DNA from: a virus
Lineage: Duplodnaviria > Heunggongvirae > Uroviricota > Caudoviricetes
Length of the DNA stretch: 39,317 nt
Reading direction: 5' to 3' (one strand)
Virus record (IMG/VR): IMGVR_UViG_2695420380_000015
This document shows, in pieces, positions 971 through 15,361 of this stretch. The notes beneath the pieces were generated by a model. It ran no database searches. It was given only the letters and a program-made list of their open reading frames with translations, and had not been told where the DNA came from. How positions within the stretch are numbered: the first letter of the stretch is position 1; each line of letters starts with the position of its first letter. The position numbers and the translations under genes were made by a program.

Positions 971-2934
971 ATGTATGTCATTGCAAAAGAACTGATTGGC
1001 GCGCCCGGAATGCCTGCTACAACAAAAGGTATTCGCCAGGCATTACAACGTTACGTACAAGGGAAAAGCTGTTGTTCCCGTCGTCGCTCAGGCTCTAAAG
1101 CAACTGAATACAGCATCGACTGTTTACCTGAAGTGACGCAGCAGGCATTACGTGAACGCTACGCCCTGCAACTGATGACGCAAAAAGCCGATGAATCACC
1201 GGCTCCGGTGGTGACAAAGGCCAGACGCTCACCTGCCGTGGTTGATGCGGTGGAGGCATATCGCGGATCACCCCAACTGATGGTCGAACGCCTCAATGCC
1301 CTGACTGAAAACCAACGTAAAGTGGCAGAGGCACGAATAGCGATCGTCAGCGAGGTGCTGAAAATCGCGCAACAACCCGGCTTTAGTTGCGCTAAGGCTA
1401 TCCGGTTCCTCGTTAACAGCCTGGCACGATCACAACTGGACGAGCGCATTGTGGCAATGGTTGAGACGGCGAACGCCAAAAAGGGAAACAGCCGCGCGTT
1501 GAGTGAAATCACGCTGAAACGCTGGATTGCGGCCTTTAACAAGGCACAGAACGCCGCTGAACGCCTGCTTTTACTGGCACCGGGTAAACGCCAGGAAATA
1601 AAAGCCGAAGATATTAACTGGCTGCCCGAATTTCTGGCGCAGTATCGCCAGTCAAACGGCCGACCAATGACCGAGGCTTACGAGGATTTTGTTGCTGAAT
1701 GGCAGCACCGGCACGCTGATGAGCCTTATATGCTCGATATCATGCCCTCTTATGACACCATTCGCCGCGCAATGAAGAAACTGCCGGAAGTGGTGAAACA
1801 AAAAGGCCGGGTAACTGGCAGTGAATACCGTCAGCTTGAGGGATTCACGCGCCGCGACTGGTCCAGAATGCCGGTGAATTATGTCTGGATTGGTGACGGT
1901 CACGGCATGAAGCTGAAATGCGCGCACCCGGTTCACGGGCGGCCATTCGCACCGGAAGTGACCTTTGTTATCGACGGTGGCACGCGCTTTGTGGTGGGCT
2001 GGAGCCTTGACCTGGCTGAAAATGTTTTCGCCGTAGCCGGTGCCATACAGCACGGTATTCGCCATCATGGCAAACCGTTTCTGTATTACTCGGATAATGG
2101 CTCCGGGGAAACCGCCGACGTCCTGGATAAGGAGATTGTGGGGATACTGCCACGACTGGGGATTAATCACCCGACAGGGATTGCCGGTAATCCGCAGGGA
2201 CGGGGCATTATCGAACGGCTTAACCGCACATTACCGATGCGCATAGCCCGTAAATACCGCACCTATTTCGGGAAAGGAGCAGATCGCGAGACGTTACGTA
2301 AAACCAACCGCGATTTACGCTCGGCATTCAGTGCCCTGCAACAGGGCAAACGGCTGAACGCCCGGCAGCAGTCAGCGATGCGTGATTTACCGTCCTGGTC
2401 TGAACTGATTGATGCCATTCGTGACGGTGTTGAGTGGTACAACAACCGGCCGCACGATGAATTACCCATGAAGCCGAACGGTAAACATTACAGCCCGGCG
2501 GAGTTCAGAAAAAAACGCCTGGCGGAAGAGGACACGGAAATTGAATGGCTGTCCGATGTTGAACTGCGGGATATGTTCCGGCCGATGGTGGAGCGCCCTG
2601 TAAGACGCTGTGAAATACGCTGGCTGAATAATATTTACTACGCGCCCGAGCTGCGTGACGAGCATGGCCGTAAGGTACTTATCAGCTATGACATTCATGA
2701 TGCCGAACGAATTACCGTGCGCCGCCCGGATGGCAGCGTGATTTGCGAGGCGGTATGGGACGGCAATAAACGCGAAGCCTTCCCTGTCAGCGCGGAATAC
2801 TACAAACAGCAGCAGCGCCTTAAAGGCATGCGTAAACGCGCAGAGGAAAAAATCCGTGATGCCGAGGATGAGGTTGTCAACGTGCTGGAGCACAAGCCGC
2901 AGGAGCCCTGGCTGGAAAACATATACCGCCCTGT
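971..2934 (+). CDS. A: DDE transposase, MuA-like; 3' end lost in the N run, so the track's 762-aa read-through to 3259 is not trustworthy
   Basis: Long ORF starting 1 nt after ner. Contains a DDE-type core (WIGDGHG..., YYSDNGSGET..., IIERLNRTL) and sits ner-A-B as in Mu. Confidence 0.85.
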
Positions 2935-3238
2935 NNNNNNNNNNNNNNNNNNNNNNNNNNNNNNNNNNNNNNNNNNNNNNNNNNNNNNNNNNNNNNNNNN
3001 NNNNNNNNNNNNNNNNNNNNNNNNNNNNNNNNNNNNNNNNNNNNNNNNNNNNNNNNNNNNNNNNNNNNNNNNNNNNNNNNNNNNNNNNNNNNNNNNNNNN
3101 NNNNNNNNNNNNNNNNNNNNNNNNNNNNNNNNNNNNNNNNNNNNNNNNNNNNNNNNNNNNNNNNNNNNNNNNNNNNNNNNNNNNNNNNNNNNNNNNNNNN
3201 NNNNNNNNNNNNNNNNNNNNNNNNNNNNNNNNNNNNNN
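2935..3238. other. Run of N (masked or unsequenced) covering the transposase 3' end and the B 5' end
   Basis: 304 consecutive n characters. Confidence 0.99.
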
Positions 3239-12279: not shown

Positions 12280-12571
12280 AGATTATGTCGTGCCGATCCT
12301 GTCGGCAACGGCCACGGCCGGGGGGATCTTTATGGCGCTGATGCGCAAAACCTTTGTCCCCCGCGAGGCCTTTGAAAAACTCTCCGACCGGGTTGAGCGG
12401 GTGGAGAGCCGGATTTCCGGCCTGCCCACGCAGCAGGAGGTGAACAGACTCAATATCGAAATCACCACCCTGCGCGGTGAGCTTAAGGCCACCAATGCCA
12501 CCCTGAAATCCGTCTCCCACCAGAACGAACTGCTGCTGGAGCAGGCTGTAAGGAAAAAACACAATGAGTGA
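12260..12571 (+). CDS. Membrane-anchored coiled-coil protein at the position of Mu gp25 (possible endolysin 'releasin' or holin-like lysis factor)
   Basis: N-terminal TM segment (VVPILSATATAGGIFMALM) followed by a coiled-coil region; located at the end of the lysis cassette. Confidence 0.5.
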   Translation: MWISIVKDYVVPILSATATAGGIFMALMRKTFVPREAFEKLSDRVERVESRISGLPTQQEVNRLNIEITTLRGELKATNATLKSVSHQNELLLEQAVRKKHNE

Positions 12572-12854
12572 TTTCATTACTGAAGATCAGCGTCTTGTCA
12601 TTCTGCGGTCGCTGGCGGATTACAACGGCGAACTGGGCGAATCCGTGCTTCAGGACTGCCTGGATGATTACGGCCACCGCGTGTCCCGCGACACCGTGCA
12701 TACCCATATTGCCTGGCTTGCCGAGCAGGGACTGGTGCGTAAGCGCACGCTTGTTAACGGTTATTTCATCGTTGAACTGACCGGCCGGGGTCAGGATGTG
12801 GCGGAAGGCCGCGCCACCGTTCCGGGTGTGAAGAAACCACGCGCAAGGGGGTAA
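12564..12854 (+). CDS. Hypothetical late protein (Mu gp26 position)
   Basis: 96-aa ORF coupled to its neighbours; no motif recognised. Confidence 0.5.
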   Translation: MSDFITEDQRLVILRSLADYNGELGESVLQDCLDDYGHRVSRDTVHTHIAWLAEQGLVRKRTLVNGYFIVELTGRGQDVAEGRATVPGVKKPRARG

Positions 12855-12856
12855 CG

Positions 12857-13438
12857 ATGGATAAGCCAACGCGTGGCCGTGTACGCAAGGTGGATTTGCT
12901 CCCCGACAGCATCCGTAAGCCGCTGCTGGAAATGCTGCGTGAAAAACGCCTGACGCAGGTCCAGATCCGCGAGGAAATCAACCGCCTGATCCGTGAGGCG
13001 GGTCTGCCGGAAGAGCAGCAGCTTTCACCGGCGGCCATCAGCCGGGAGGCCTCCCGTAATGAGCTGATTGCCCGTAACCTGCGTGATTTACGCGAGCAGA
13101 CAAAAGCCATGATGGCCGAACTGGGGGACAAGCCGACCGGTGAAACCACGGCACTGATTCTGGAAATGTCCCGCGCCCTGATGTACCGCCGTCTGCGTGC
13201 TGCCACCGAATCCCTGAACAGCGACAGCGATGTGGATATGCGCCTTATTAAGGACATCCTCCTGTCGGCACAGCGTGCGGAAAGTGCCGCCGAGCGCAGC
13301 ATTAAGCGTGAAAAAGAAATCCGGGCCGCATTTGCTGAAGAGATGGCGAACGCCGTCACCGACGAGTTGCGCGGCGTGGATGGCATGAGCGAGCAGATAG
13401 AATTCCGTATCAGGCAGATGCTGCTTGGTAAGGCGTAG
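12857..13438 (+). CDS. Mu gp27-like protein (putative terminase small subunit)
   Basis: 193-aa basic, helical protein directly upstream of the large terminase; N-terminal motif MDKPTRGRVRKVDLLPDSIRKPLLEMLRE consistent with Mu gp27-like proteins as remembered. Confidence 0.6.
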   Translation: MDKPTRGRVRKVDLLPDSIRKPLLEMLREKRLTQVQIREEINRLIREAGLPEEQQLSPAAISREASRNELIARNLRDLREQTKAMMAELGDKPTGETTALILEMSRALMYRRLRAATESLNSDSDVDMRLIKDILLSAQRAESAAERSIKREKEIRAAFAEEMANAVTDELRGVDGMSEQIEFRIRQMLLGKA

Positions 13439-13448
13439 GAGGTGAATC

Positions 13449-13697
13449 GTGGTAACAGATAACCGCTCACTGATGAGTAGTGCTCATCAGAAGGCATTCA
13501 GTCTTGCAACACAGTTACCTCCTGAAACCATAAAAGCGTGTCGTGAGTTGACTGAACTCAGCATTGCCGGGGAAATATCCCTGGAACAACTGCATTCGCT
13601 GCTGGCAGAGGCTGTCACTGATGAGTTGAGTGGCGTGGACGTGATGACTGAAGAGCTTGAGTTCCGAATCAAAAGCATTCTGACAGGTAAAGCCTGA
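13449..13697 (+). CDS. Small ORF (82 aa) whose C-terminal 28 aa are a diverged duplicate of the gp27-like C-terminus
   Basis: GTG start with AGGAGG 7 nt upstream. C-terminus AVTDELSGVDVMTEELEFRIKSILTGKA versus upstream AVTDELRGVDGMSEQIEFRIRQMLLGKA; stop overlaps the terminase start. Confidence 0.5.
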   Translation: MVTDNRSLMSSAHQKAFSLATQLPPETIKACRELTELSIAGEISLEQLHSLLAEAVTDELSGVDVMTEELEFRIKSILTGKA

Positions 13698-15361
13698 TGA
13701 ACAAAGCCAAAGAAACGTCTCCTTCACTGATACAAATGACGCCTCCCCGCAAAATTGATCTGTCCGGTGAAAAAGCCCTGCTGGGCGTGGATGTGCCGGA
13801 CAGACTTGATTTGCCCGGTGATATGCCGGTGTTTCTGGATTATCAGGCCCGCTGGTTTGAGGATGAAAGTCAGGTCTGCATTGCGGAAAAATCCCGCCGC
13901 ACCGGTCTTACCTGGGCGGAAGCCGGGCGTAACGTCATTACTGCTGCAAAACCGAAGCGTCGTGGTGGCCGCAATGTGTTTTATGTGGGATCAAAGCAGG
14001 AGATGGCGCTGGAATATATTTCTGCCTGCGCCCTGTTCTCCCGCGCCTTTAACCAGCTGGCGGATGCTGATGTGTATGAGCAGACCTTCTGGGATCGGGA
14101 TAAAAAAGAAGAAATTCTGACCTACATGATCCGCTTTCCGAACAGTGGATTCAAAATTCAGGCACTGTCTTCCCGTCCGTCAAACCTGCGCGGCCTTCAG
14201 GGGGATGTGGTGATTGATGAAGCCGCGTTCCACGAGTCACTGGATGAGCTTCTCAAGGCGGCAATGGCGCTCACTATGTGGGGCGCGCGCGTGCGTATTA
14301 TCTCCACGCATAACGGCGTCGATAATCTGTTTAATCAGTACATTCAGGAAGCCCGCGAGGGGCGCAAGGATTACAGCGTCCACCGCATAACCCTGGATGA
14401 TGCCATTGCGGACGGGCTGTACCGTCGTATCTGTTACGTCACCGATCAGGAATGGTCACCGGAAAGCGAGCAGAAATGGCGTGATGATCTCTACAAAAAC
14501 GCCCCGACCCGTGAGGATGCCGACGAGGAATACGGCTGTATCCCGAAAAAATCCGGCGGTGCCTATATTCCTCACGCGCTTATTGAAATGGCGATGATCC
14601 GCGACATCCCGATTCTGACGTTTGAAGCCCCGGACAACTTCATCAGCCGTGCCGCATGGCTGCGTGAATCGGAAGTTTTAACCTGGTGTGAAGAACATTT
14701 AAAACCGCTTTTAGAGAAATTAAATCCCCGTTCCCGCTTCAGCTTCGGGGAAGACTTTGCCCGCACCGGTGACCTGTCCTGCTTTGTGCTGCTGGAAATC
14801 ACCGAATCCCTGGCAAAGCGCGAGGTGTTTCGCGTGGAGCTGCGCAACCTGCCGTATGCCCAGCAGGAACAGGTGATGATGTACATCCTGACCCGCGTTC
14901 CGGCGCTGGTCGGTGCGGCGTTCGACGCCACCGGTAACGGCGGCTATCTGGCAGAAGCCGCACTGCTGGCCTTTGGCCCGGACATCATCGACTGCGTGAT
15001 GTTGTCGCCGAAGTGGTACGGCGAGTGGATGCCAAAACTGAAAGCCGAGTTTGAAGATCAGAATATCCTCGTCGCCCGCCATCAGACCACGCTTGATGAT
15101 TTGCGCCATGTGAAGGTGGTGAATGGTATCCCGCAAATCGACAAGGGGCGCACGAAGGACCAGAACGCAACGGCTGCGAACGCCCGCCGCCATGGTGATT
15201 TTGCCGTGGCACTCTGTATGGCAAACCGGGCGTCATACATGGAGGGATTCATCCTGGATGAATCAGCCTGTCAGGCGCTGCCGGAGCGGTCGCGGGCAAT
15301 GGAGGGCGGTTATCGTGATGACGATGAGGCATATCATGAATTTGAACGGGGGTGCTGGTAG
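13697..15361 (+). CDS. Terminase large subunit (Mu gp28-like)
   Basis: 554-aa ORF with ATPase-like motifs (VFYVGSKQ, VVIDEAAF) and a C-terminal nuclease-like region; conserved position. Confidence 0.85.
   Translation: MNKAKETSPSLIQMTPPRKIDLSGEKALLGVDVPDRLDLPGDMPVFLDYQARWFEDESQVCIAEKSRRTGLTWAEAGRNVITAAKPKRRGGRNVFYVGSKQEMALEYISACALFSRAFNQLADADVYEQTFWDRDKKEEILTYMIRFPNSGFKIQALSSRPSNLRGLQGDVVIDEAAFHESLDELLKAAMALTMWGARVRIISTHNGVDNLFNQYIQEAREGRKDYSVHRITLDDAIADGLYRRICYVTDQEWSPESEQKWRDDLYKNAPTREDADEEYGCIPKKSGGAYIPHALIEMAMIRDIPILTFEAPDNFISRAAWLRESEVLTWCEEHLKPLLEKLNPRSRFSFGEDFARTGDLSCFVLLEITESLAKREVFRVELRNLPYAQQEQVMMYILTRVPALVGAAFDATGNGGYLAEAALLAFGPDIIDCVMLSPKWYGEWMPKLKAEFEDQNILVARHQTTLDDLRHVKVVNGIPQIDKGRTKDQNATAANARRHGDFAVALCMANRASYMEGFILDESACQALPERSRAMEGGYRDDDEAYHEFERGCW

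What the first reader, a model, noticed from the sequence alone, without database searches (positions are those of the whole stretch)
13380..13697. Extra small gene duplicating the C-terminal tail of the gp27-like putative small terminase
An 82-aa ORF with an excellent RBS lies between the gp27-like gene and the large terminase gene. Its last 28 residues are a diverged copy of the gp27-like C-terminus (about 70 percent nucleotide identity by eye). If that tail is what contacts the large terminase, the small protein could act as an adaptor or competitor in packaging, or it may be a duplication remnant.
Basis: partly seen in the sequence, partly recalled or inferred. Interest (0 to 1): 0.6.

Follow-up and report, generated by a model that had tools for sequence, protein, structure and literature searches.

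The report
Small phage gene with borrowed terminase tail
The 82-codon gene between the small and large terminase genes of this Mu-like E. coli prophage is real and does end in a copy of the small terminase tail, but it looks like a weakly constrained accessory gene that picked up the tail by recombination, not a proven packaging regulator.

Summary
ORF 13449-13697 (GTG start, AGGAGG 6 nt upstream) ends in 31 residues that copy the gp27 C-terminus (20/31 identical, E 1e-12; 63/96 nt).

The ORF is not a simple duplication. Residues 1-55 belong to an independent family of 57-67 aa helical proteins. That family sits between gp27 (TerS) and TerL in Salmonella, Citrobacter, Mixta/Apirhabdus and some E. 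coli Mu-like prophages, and those members have no tail. Only the E. coli 82-aa form carries it.

The tail copy is closer to the gp27 tail of prophages without the insert than to the gp27 tail next to it. It also brings the usual overlapping stop/start junction with terL (TGATG). I read it as a recombination scar that keeps terL translationally coupled.

- The ORF is absent from about 90% of related E. coli prophages and from Mu, D108 and SfMu.
- It evolves almost neutrally: omega 0.49 against 0.02 for gp27, with variable sites 13/16/21 by codon position against 4/3/54.
- Its tail has lost 3 of 16 residues invariant among Mu-type gp27 tails.

A decoy or adaptor role on TerL is not excluded but is disfavoured. 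Interest is low to moderate.

The parts
12857..13438 (+). gp27-like putative small terminase (TerS) gene, 193 aa
   Evidence: PF11985 E 3e-33 and phrog_426 'terminase small subunit' E 9e-55. The AF2 model shows N-terminal short helices, long central helices, a loop at 172-178 and a terminal helix at 179-189. Omega is 0.02.
13343..13438 (+). Tail copy 1: gp27 codons 163-193 plus the TAG stop. This is the most conserved stretch of the Mu-type gp27 subfamily.
   Evidence: Alignment A3 with Mu, Vibrio phage and Salmonella relatives shows 16 invariant positions in the tail. Omega is 0.02; variable sites by codon position are 2/1/13.
13437..13442 (+). Shine-Dalgarno AGGAGG for ORF82, overlapping the gp27 stop codon
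   Evidence: Read directly from the sequence. It is conserved in other alleles and in the Salmonella-type junction (TGAGGTGG).
13449..13697 (+). ORF82, the small chimeric gene (82 aa plus stop)
   Evidence: Full-length match to phrog_30922, E 1e-55. Annotated as a hypothetical protein CDS in RefSeq. Intact in 20 loci representing 12 alleles.
13449..13613 (+). Core of ORF82 (codons 1-55): member of the 57-67 aa small-protein family found between gp27 and terL. Predicted three helices.
   Evidence: Profile search E 1e-12 to 1e-24 against the Salmonella, Mixta and E. coli L' members. The same genomic slot is occupied in L017, L021 and L070-73. AF2 helices at 5-21, 25-39 and 45-60, pLDDT 72-84.
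13602..13697 (+). Tail copy 2: ORF82 codons 52-82 plus the TGA stop, derived from a gp27 3' end. The join to the core lies near codons 53-56 (A-x-A|V).
   Evidence: establish the repeat. It is closest to the canonical S-type tail (72/93) rather than tail 1 (62/93). Omega is 0.35; variable sites by codon position are 4/6/6. R172S, G176V and S178T are fixed.
13695..13699 (+). TGATG: the ORF82 stop overlaps the terL start by 1 nt (putative translational coupling). It is the same junction as gp27-terL in prophages without the insert.
   Evidence: In the survey, 44 of 57 loci have the upstream ORF stop overlapping the terL start.
13697..15361 (+). Large terminase (TerL) gene, 554 aa
   Evidence: phrog_2 'terminase large subunit' E 2e-43. 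Omega is 0.07.
13470..13490 (+). Local hairpin CTGATGAG-TAGTG-CTCATCAG inside the 5' part of ORF82. Significance is uncertain.
   Evidence: The z-score is only -1.6. Other alleles carry a different palindrome at the same place.

Best explanation
ORF82 is a chimeric late-operon accessory gene. Codons 1-55 are the E. coli version of a small three-helix protein family of unknown function. That family has settled between the small (gp27) and large terminase genes in a subset of enterobacterial Mu-like prophages.

In this lineage, recombination between a phage carrying the small gene and a canonical phage (gp27 directly abutting terL) joined the small gene in frame, at a short A-x-A|V microhomology, to the last ~27-31 codons of the canonical phage's gp27. 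It also brought the canonical overlapping stop/start (TGATG) with terL.

The tail copy is therefore mainly a recombination scar. It persists because it carries the terL translation-initiation context: ribosomes finishing ORF82 terminate on the terL start codon, just as ribosomes finishing gp27 do in phages without the insert. The tail peptide itself is largely a passenger under relaxed constraint. The gene is dispensable for packaging.

Shown here: the repeat, the family membership of the core, the distribution, the relaxed selection, and the conserved stop/start overlap.
Inferred: the recombination route, the functional importance of coupling, and the passenger status of the tail peptide.
For: - The repeat is real.
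- The core belongs to an independent family. Tail-less 57-67 aa homologues occupy the same slot in Citrobacter (L017), Apirhabdus (L021), Salmonella (L070-73) and an E. coli variant (L010). The tail-less family has no detectable similarity to gp27 (hhalign probability 0.1%). With the tail the match is 95.8%, E 8e-9.
- Tail 2 matches the canonical S-type tail at 72/93 nt and its downstream junction at 24/34 nt. It matches tail 1 at only 62/93 and 9/34, no better than tails from other genera.
- Canonical organisation: the gp27 stop overlaps or abuts the terL start in Mu, a Vibrio phage and most of 53 genomes. When another small ORF is inserted, its stop overlaps the terL start instead. Overall 44/57 loci overlap and 8 more lie within 1-7 nt.
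- Dispensability: the unique part of ORF82 is present in 25 of 5426 complete E. coli genomes, against 230 that carry the locus. Most of those lack exactly 259 bp. No sequenced phage in the phage collection has the ORF.
- Relaxed constraint: omega is 0.49 for ORF82 and 0.35 for its tail, against 0.02 for gp27, 0.02 for the gp27 tail and 0.07 for terL in the same genomes. Variable sites by codon position are 13/16/21 against 4/3/54. Three of 16 invariant tail residues are lost in all alleles and more are polymorphic, including one L-to-P change.
- AF2 places the tail as a low-confidence loop plus a terminal helix appended to a three-helix core.
Against: - All 12 alleles seen in 20 loci keep the full 82-codon frame. 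Omega is below 1, with Fisher p = 0.007-0.014 for the most diverged pairs. Some selection on the protein therefore cannot be excluded.
- The tail keeps 13 of 16 invariant residues and its helix-forming pattern, so residual binding to TerL is plausible.
- Coupling is inferred only from gene overlap. One variant (L010) has a 119-nt gap before terL and presumably still works.
- The recombination route is a reconstruction. No donor with a near-identical tail was found.
- An open frame across 53 substitution events has a 15% chance under neutrality. Intactness therefore proves neither a protein function nor coupling.
Confidence: 0.55

Rival explanations
1. TerS-tail decoy or adaptor. The C-terminal loop and helix copied from gp27 still dock on TerL. 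ORF82 would then either compete with TerS for TerL or tether the three-helix accessory domain to the terminase, tuning packaging initiation.
For: - In lambda and P22 the TerS C-terminal region binds the N-terminal part of TerL (review PMC9611059).
- The gp27 tail is the most conserved part of the Mu-type subfamily.
- The ORF82 tail keeps 20/31 residues and 13/16 invariant positions.
- The predicted shape, a flexible loop plus a terminal helix, is the same in both proteins.
- The ORF is open in all 12 alleles and has a strong ribosome-binding site.
- The core family always sits between the two terminase genes.
Against: - The tail copy evolves about 17 times less constrained than the gp27 tail in the same genomes (omega 0.35 against 0.02; variable sites 4/6/6 against 2/1/13).
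- R172, G176 and S178 are lost in every allele. G173, A193 and V167 are polymorphic, and one allele has a proline in the helix.
- The tail is absent from every family member outside E. coli. The whole gene is absent from about 90% of the closest prophages.
- That the gp27 tail binds TerL is itself only an analogy and was not tested for Mu-like phages.
Confidence: 0.22
2. In-place tandem duplication remnant. A segment spanning the gp27 tail and the first ~50 codons of terL was duplicated in tandem, so ORF82 would be a decayed TerL N-terminus fused to tail copy 2, with no function of its own.
For: - There is weak similarity between ORF82 residues 9-39 and TerL residues 1-31 (9/31 identical; shuffle p = 0.02 at protein level and 0.009 at nucleotide level).
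- Tail 1 and some tail 2 alleles share the unusual F in 'EFRI'.
- Evolution is near-neutral.
Against: - The core is homologous to tail-less small genes in Salmonella, Citrobacter, Mixta and E. coli L' (E down to 1e-24).
- The offset of the weak TerL match (224 nt) does not fit the repeat period (259 nt).
- Tail 2 is nearer to S-type tails than to tail 1.
- The Salmonella small gene shows omega 0.33 and a conserved 65-aa length across about 15 clusters.
Confidence: 0.08
3. The core family is a genuine third packaging factor or another late-acting accessory protein. Its function lies in the three-helix domain, and the tail is a recent, selectively favoured addition only in E. coli.
For: - The family position is conserved between TerS and TerL, and it is coupled to terL in several genera.
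- Length is conserved and omega is below 1 in Salmonella.
- Herpesvirus terminases have a small third subunit (PMC9611059).
Against: - No family annotation, Pfam, NCBIfam or structural match gives any functional clue.
- The gene is absent from Mu itself and from most relatives.
- Sequence turnover is fast.
Confidence: 0.12

Closest known systems
TerS C-terminal region binding the TerL N-terminus (lambda gpNu1-gpA; P22 gp3 residues 140-162 with gp2 residues 1-58)
   Same: The duplicated segment is the C-terminal end of the putative TerS. It is encoded directly next to the TerL N-terminus and predicted as a flexible loop plus a short helix (PMC9611059).
   Different: No binding data exist for Mu gp27. 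There is no sequence relationship to lambda or P22 TerS. Here the peptide sits on a second, unrelated small protein and is decaying.
Phage mosaic junctions and moron-like insertions between conserved late genes
   Same: The gene shows presence/absence polymorphism between near-identical flanks. Unrelated small ORFs occupy the same slot in other Mu-like prophages, with sharp identity breaks at the tail-coding stretch.
   Different: Classical morons bring their own promoter and terminator. None was found here. The inserted ORF is instead translationally chained into the operon and is fused to a piece of its neighbour.
Satellite-encoded terminase interference proteins (SaPI Ppi, PICI Rpp, satellite TerS variants); recalled from general knowledge, not tested here
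   Same: These are small proteins that act on the TerS-TerL partnership. ORF82 would resemble them if it were a decoy.
   Different: Those proteins are encoded by satellites, not by the phage itself. They target TerS or replace it, and they share no sequence with ORF82. No interference has been shown here.
phrog_30922 / RefSeq hypothetical protein WP_000255658.1
   Same: This is the same protein family: a full-length match, E 1e-55.
   Different: The catalogue entry carries no function and does not note the chimeric origin or the TerS tail.

Membership tests
Phage_Mu_Gp27 (PF11985, putative TerS) | Match to the full-length family profile, including the N-terminal DNA-binding region and the long central helices | tested here: not met
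   ORF82 has no Pfam hit at E <= 1. Only residues 52-82 align to gp27. Residues 1-51 against the gp27 body give p = 0.59.
Phage_Mu_Gp27 (PF11985, putative TerS) | Conserved C-terminal motif A-x-AV(T/S)(D/E)ELRGxDG(M/I)SE-LE-RI---LLGKA of the Mu-type subfamily | tested here: inconclusive
   13 of 16 invariant positions are kept. R172S, G176V and S178T are fixed in all ORF82 alleles.
phrog_30922 (unknown function) | Full-length match to the profile | tested here: met
   E 1.1e-55, positions 1-82 of 82.
Unnamed 57-67 aa small-protein family of enterobacterial Mu-like prophages (P0012, P0135-P0151) | Sequence homology over the ~55-residue core | tested here: met
   A profile built from the cores finds the Salmonella, Mixta and E. 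coli L' members at E 1e-12 to 1e-24. Alignment A6. P0012 and P0135 also hit phrog_30922.
Unnamed 57-67 aa small-protein family of enterobacterial Mu-like prophages (P0012, P0135-P0151) | Position immediately downstream of gp27 and upstream of terL | tested here: met
   Window; L010; L017 and L021; L070-73.
Unnamed 57-67 aa small-protein family of enterobacterial Mu-like prophages (P0012, P0135-P0151) | Protein ends after the third helix, with no TerS tail | tested here: not met
   ORF82 and its E. coli alleles carry about 27 extra residues from gp27. This is the variant feature.
Moron (autonomous insertion in a phage late region) | Own promoter and terminator flanking the inserted gene | tested here: not met
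   No sigma-70-like promoter was found in 12500-14200, and no terminator-like site flanks ORF82.
TerS mimic / terminase interference protein | Physical binding to TerL or TerS and an effect on packaging | not testable with these tools
   Only single-chain structure prediction was available. No experiments were possible.

The most novel reading that the evidence does not exclude
A fast-evolving three-helix accessory protein of Mu-like phages has captured the TerL-docking peptide of the small terminase. This would create a phage-encoded TerS-tail decoy or adaptor that competes with TerS on TerL, for example to tune packaging initiation or to handicap co-resident related prophages. The TerS tail would then be a portable docking module.
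Probability: 0.15. Interest if true: 0.55.

Novelty: new variant of a known kind. Interest (0 to 1): 0.3.

Why it matters
If the favoured reading holds, this is a clean small-scale example of how phage mosaicism builds chimeric genes. The most conserved coding stretch at a gene boundary, the TerS tail, also carries the start context of the next gene, and it gets copied along when a cassette is exchanged. The apparent need to keep terL chained to an upstream reading frame may shape which recombinants survive.

It also gives the TerS-TerL junction of Mu-like phages a catalogue of inserted small genes that nobody has characterised.

If the minority reading holds, the tail would be a transferable TerL-docking peptide. 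ORF82 would then be a natural tool for mapping the unknown TerS-TerL interface of Mu-like phages.

Tried and rejected
- Tandem duplication of [tail + terL 5' end]. There is only weak similarity between the ORF82 core and the TerL N-terminus (p about 0.02 protein, 0.009 nucleotide). The offset of 224 nt does not fit the 259-nt period, and the core has clear tail-less homologues elsewhere. Treated as chance.
- Core derived from the gp27 region upstream of the tail. BLASTP and shuffles give p = 0.59. hhalign of the tail-less family against gp27 gives probability 0.1%. The upstream extension seen (residues 33-51) depends on the tail.
- gp27-ORF82 fusion by frameshift or read-through. ORF82 is in the +1 frame relative to gp27, and an in-frame TGA lies two codons before its start. 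Rejected.
- P0016 (291 aa) is an upstream-gene-gp27 fusion and is unrelated to ORF82.
- P0013 and P0014 from the representative search are repeat proteins and spurious hits.
- RNA element: no Rfam match in 13200-13900. The 13470-13490 hairpin and its counterparts give fold z-scores of only -0.2 to -2.2 and are absent from Salmonella-type genes.
- Foldseek of the ORF82 model against the PDB gave nothing with E < 3. NCBIfam gave nothing. A phrog_220 hit of P0135 (E 3e-5 to a 1338-position profile) was not interpretable.
- A literature search on Mu gp27 found nothing specific.
- P0008 could not be located to inspect one of the apparently truncated alleles. P0009 was not looked up.
- Deletion between the two tails as the routine source of the short form is doubtful. 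The longest exact match between them, read by eye from the sequences, is about 8 nt.

Full report
**1. What is there**

The window carries a Mu-like late operon. Close E. coli copies are annotated Mor, lysozyme, LysC, TraR/DksA, DUF2730, gp26-like, gp27 family, two hypothetical proteins, then the DUF935 portal.
- The gp27-like gene is 12857-13438 (PF11985, E 3e-33; phrog_426 'terminase small subunit').
- TerL is 13697-15361 (phrog_2).
- Between them lies an 82-codon ORF, 13449-13697. It starts with GTG here and with ATG in most other alleles. AGGAGG at 13437-13442 overlaps the gp27 TAG stop and lies 6 nt before the start.
- The ORF's TGA stop shares its A with the terL ATG (TGATG at 13695-13699).

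**2. The repeat**

ORF82 residues 52-82 align without gaps to gp27 residues 163-193: 20/31 identical, 26/31 similar, E 1e-12. None of 2000 shuffles reached the score. At the nucleotide level 63/96 positions match, again beyond all shuffles. Nothing upstream of the tail is shared: ORF82 1-51 against gp27 1-162 gives p = 0.59.

**3. Distribution**

Among 5426 complete E. coli genomes, 230 carry this gp27-terL locus.
- Only about two dozen align over the whole 1044-nt query.
- Every listed record in the 90-95% identity band (207 records in all) aligns in two pieces spanning 785 nt, so 259 nt are missing. That is the repeat period.
- The unique part of the ORF (13439-13601) is found in 25 genomes (29 places), always under a CDS annotated as a hypothetical protein.

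In the short form, gp27 ends ...GGTAAAGCCTGATG and runs directly into terL. Mu has a 7-nt gap, and the Vibrio phage vB-Vv-ZX4290 has the overlap. D108 and SfMu match only through the gp27 tail and have no ORF82.

In a survey of gp27 loci from 53 genomes plus the reference loci, 44 of 57 have the upstream ORF stop overlapping the terL start (-1, -4 or -8). Eight more lie within 1-7 nt. The short form is therefore the canonical state and ORF82 is an insertion.

**4. The core of ORF82 is an independent gene family**

Searches with ORF82 alone found only E. coli proteins, plus a 67-aa protein, P0012. P0012 shares residues 1-34 with ORF82, then differs and lacks the tail. Its locus (L010) has a 119-nt spacer and a different TerL N-terminus.

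The genome survey then showed small ORFs in the same slot in Citrobacter braakii (65 aa) and Apirhabdus (57 aa) that align with ORF82 residues 1-~60. A profile of these cores retrieved about 17 further clusters at E 1e-12 to 1e-22: 65-aa hypothetical proteins from Salmonella enterica and a 57-aa protein from Mixta. In Salmonella the gene sits 7 nt after gp27, and its stop overlaps the terL start (ATGA).

The tail-less family has no detectable similarity to gp27 (hhalign probability 0.1%). With the E. coli tails included, the match is 95.8%, E 8e-9, and is driven by the tail. AlphaFold2 predicts three helices for the core (5-21, 25-39, 45-60; pLDDT 72-84). These are followed by a low-confidence loop (59-65 below pLDDT 50) and a terminal helix (68-79). 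The gp27 model ends in the same way, with a loop at 172-178 and a helix at 179-189. No structural or family annotation gives a function.

**5. Where the tail came from**

Tail 2 matches tail 1 at 62/93 nt. That is no better than tail 1 or tail 2 matches tails from Vibrio or Salmonella (60-68/93). Tail 2 matches the canonical E. coli short-form tail at 72/93, and the sequence just downstream at 24/34 against 9/34. The tail 2-terL junction (GGTAAAGCCTGATGAA) is the canonical one. Forms that carry the small gene end gp27 with GGTAAGGCG-TAG/TGA followed by a Shine-Dalgarno sequence.

The family-derived part of ORF82 can be followed to ...QLHSLLAEA (compare P0012...QLQTLVAHA). The gp27-derived part starts at AVTDEL. 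Both parents have A-x-A at the join.

The region is strongly mosaic. The short form L001 and the L' form L010 are 99.4-99.8% identical through gp27 up to about nt 24 of the tail, then drop to roughly 75%. The terL bodies of all E. coli forms are 97-98% identical, while the first 15-20 TerL residues differ.

The simplest history is recombination between a phage bearing the small gene and a canonical phage. This fused the small gene in frame to the canonical gp27 tail. It is a reconstruction; no near-identical donor was found.

**6. Selection**

Values come from eight loci analysed pairwise and 12 distinct alleles from 20 loci.

| Region | Omega | Variable sites by codon position (1/2/3) |
|---|---|---|
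| gp27 | 0.02 | 4/3/54 |
| gp27 tail | 0.02 | 2/1/13 |
| terL | 0.07 | not measured |
| ORF82 whole | 0.49 | 13/16/21 |
| ORF82 core | 0.57 | 9/10/15 |
| ORF82 tail | 0.35 | 4/6/6 |

- The gp27 protein is identical in many of these genomes, while every ORF82 allele differs.
- The ORF82 tail has lost R172, G176 and S178 in all alleles. These residues are invariant from E. coli to Mu and a Vibrio phage. G173, V167 and A193 are polymorphic, and one allele has L-to-P in the helix.
- All 12 alleles keep the frame open, but with 53 substitution events the neutral probability of no stop is 0.15.
- A few truncated or frameshifted database entries exist (P0008-P0011).
- The most diverged pairs still show pS > pN (Fisher p = 0.007-0.014). 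The Salmonella gene has omega 0.33 and a conserved 65-aa length. The family therefore looks like a weakly constrained accessory gene rather than noise.

**7. Mechanism**

The most likely reading (about 0.55) is as follows. The tail on ORF82 is a recombination scar. It is retained because it carries the canonical terL start context and keeps terL translation chained to an upstream reading frame. Almost every relative preserves that arrangement, whichever ORF precedes terL. The peptide itself is mostly a passenger.

It is also supported by the 13/16 retained invariant residues. It is weakened by the relaxed constraint, the lost invariant residues, the absence of a tail in every other family member, and the absence of the gene from about 90% of sister prophages.

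An in-place tandem duplication of tail plus terL 5' end (about 0.08) has only a weak p of about 0.02 behind it, and the family evidence contradicts it. A real but unknown function of the three-helix core (about 0.12) is compatible with either reading of the tail.

**8. Novelty and verdict**

The protein is already catalogued, without function, as phrog_30922 and as a RefSeq hypothetical protein. Its chimeric make-up, the wider tail-less family and the insertion hot spot at the TerS-TerL junction were not noted in any source I could search. It is a new variant of a known kind, namely a phage mosaic-junction or accessory gene. It is of modest interest unless binding to TerL is demonstrated.

Noticed in passing
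L031:3561-3972; L034:3570-3764; L065:3558-3765; L066:3555-3806 (gp27-terL gaps in Shewanella, Marinobacterium, Marinomonas, Endozoicomonas prophages): The gp27-terL junction holds unrelated small ORFs in several distant Mu-like prophages (a membrane-like protein of about 110 aa, and ORFs of 63, 62 and 84 aa). In most, the stop still overlaps the terL start. The junction looks like a recurrent insertion hot spot with coupling preserved.
   Followed up: partly
L010:4100-4330 (variant E. coli-type locus from Logan SRR34397675): The L' variant has a 67-aa tail-less small gene, a 119-nt spacer and a different TerL N-terminus. The spacer and the 3' end of the small gene hold a possible minus-strand 39-aa ORF preceded by GGAGAG.
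   Followed up: no
window 13470-13490: There is an 8-bp hairpin, CTGATGAG-TAGTG-CTCATCAG, in the 5' part of ORF82. Other alleles have a different palindrome at the same spot (GGGCGCTGAT-T-ATCAGCGCCC in L010; GGGCGCT-AATAATC-AGCGCCC in L003 and L004). Fold z-scores are only -0.2 to -2.2, and the hairpin is absent from Salmonella-type genes.
   Followed up: partly
window 13343-13370 and 13697-13760; L001, L010: There are sharp mosaic boundaries. The short form and the L' form are 99.4-99.8% identical up to about nt 24 of the tail-coding stretch, then about 75%. The first 15-20 TerL residues are hypervariable between forms, while the rest of terL is 97-98% identical.
   Followed up: partly
window 13473-13565 vs 13697-13789: ORF82 residues 9-39 show weak similarity to TerL residues 1-31 (9/31 identical, including SL....PP..I; shuffle p about 0.02). 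This is probably chance but is unexplained.
   Followed up: partly
L015 (Mu NC_000929) 1601-3090: The Mu RefSeq record labels gp28 'putative portal protein'. tblastn with the window's TerL, which matches the large-terminase family phrog_2, hits that CDS from about TerL residue 10. The record's product name looks outdated.
   Followed up: no
L002 (E. coli JE86-ST05, 100% identical to window 12857-13900): This genome holds three copies of the ORF82-specific segment. In the copy fetched, terL and the lysozyme gene are annotated as frameshifted, whereas the window's terL is intact.
   Followed up: no
window 12564-12854: The gene upstream of gp27 (the Mu gp26 equivalent, 'VpaChn25_0724 family') gives weak winged-helix/ArsR-like Pfam hits and is annotated as an ArsR regulator in the Vibrio phage. 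A second DNA-binding protein may therefore sit next to the putative TerS.
   Followed up: no
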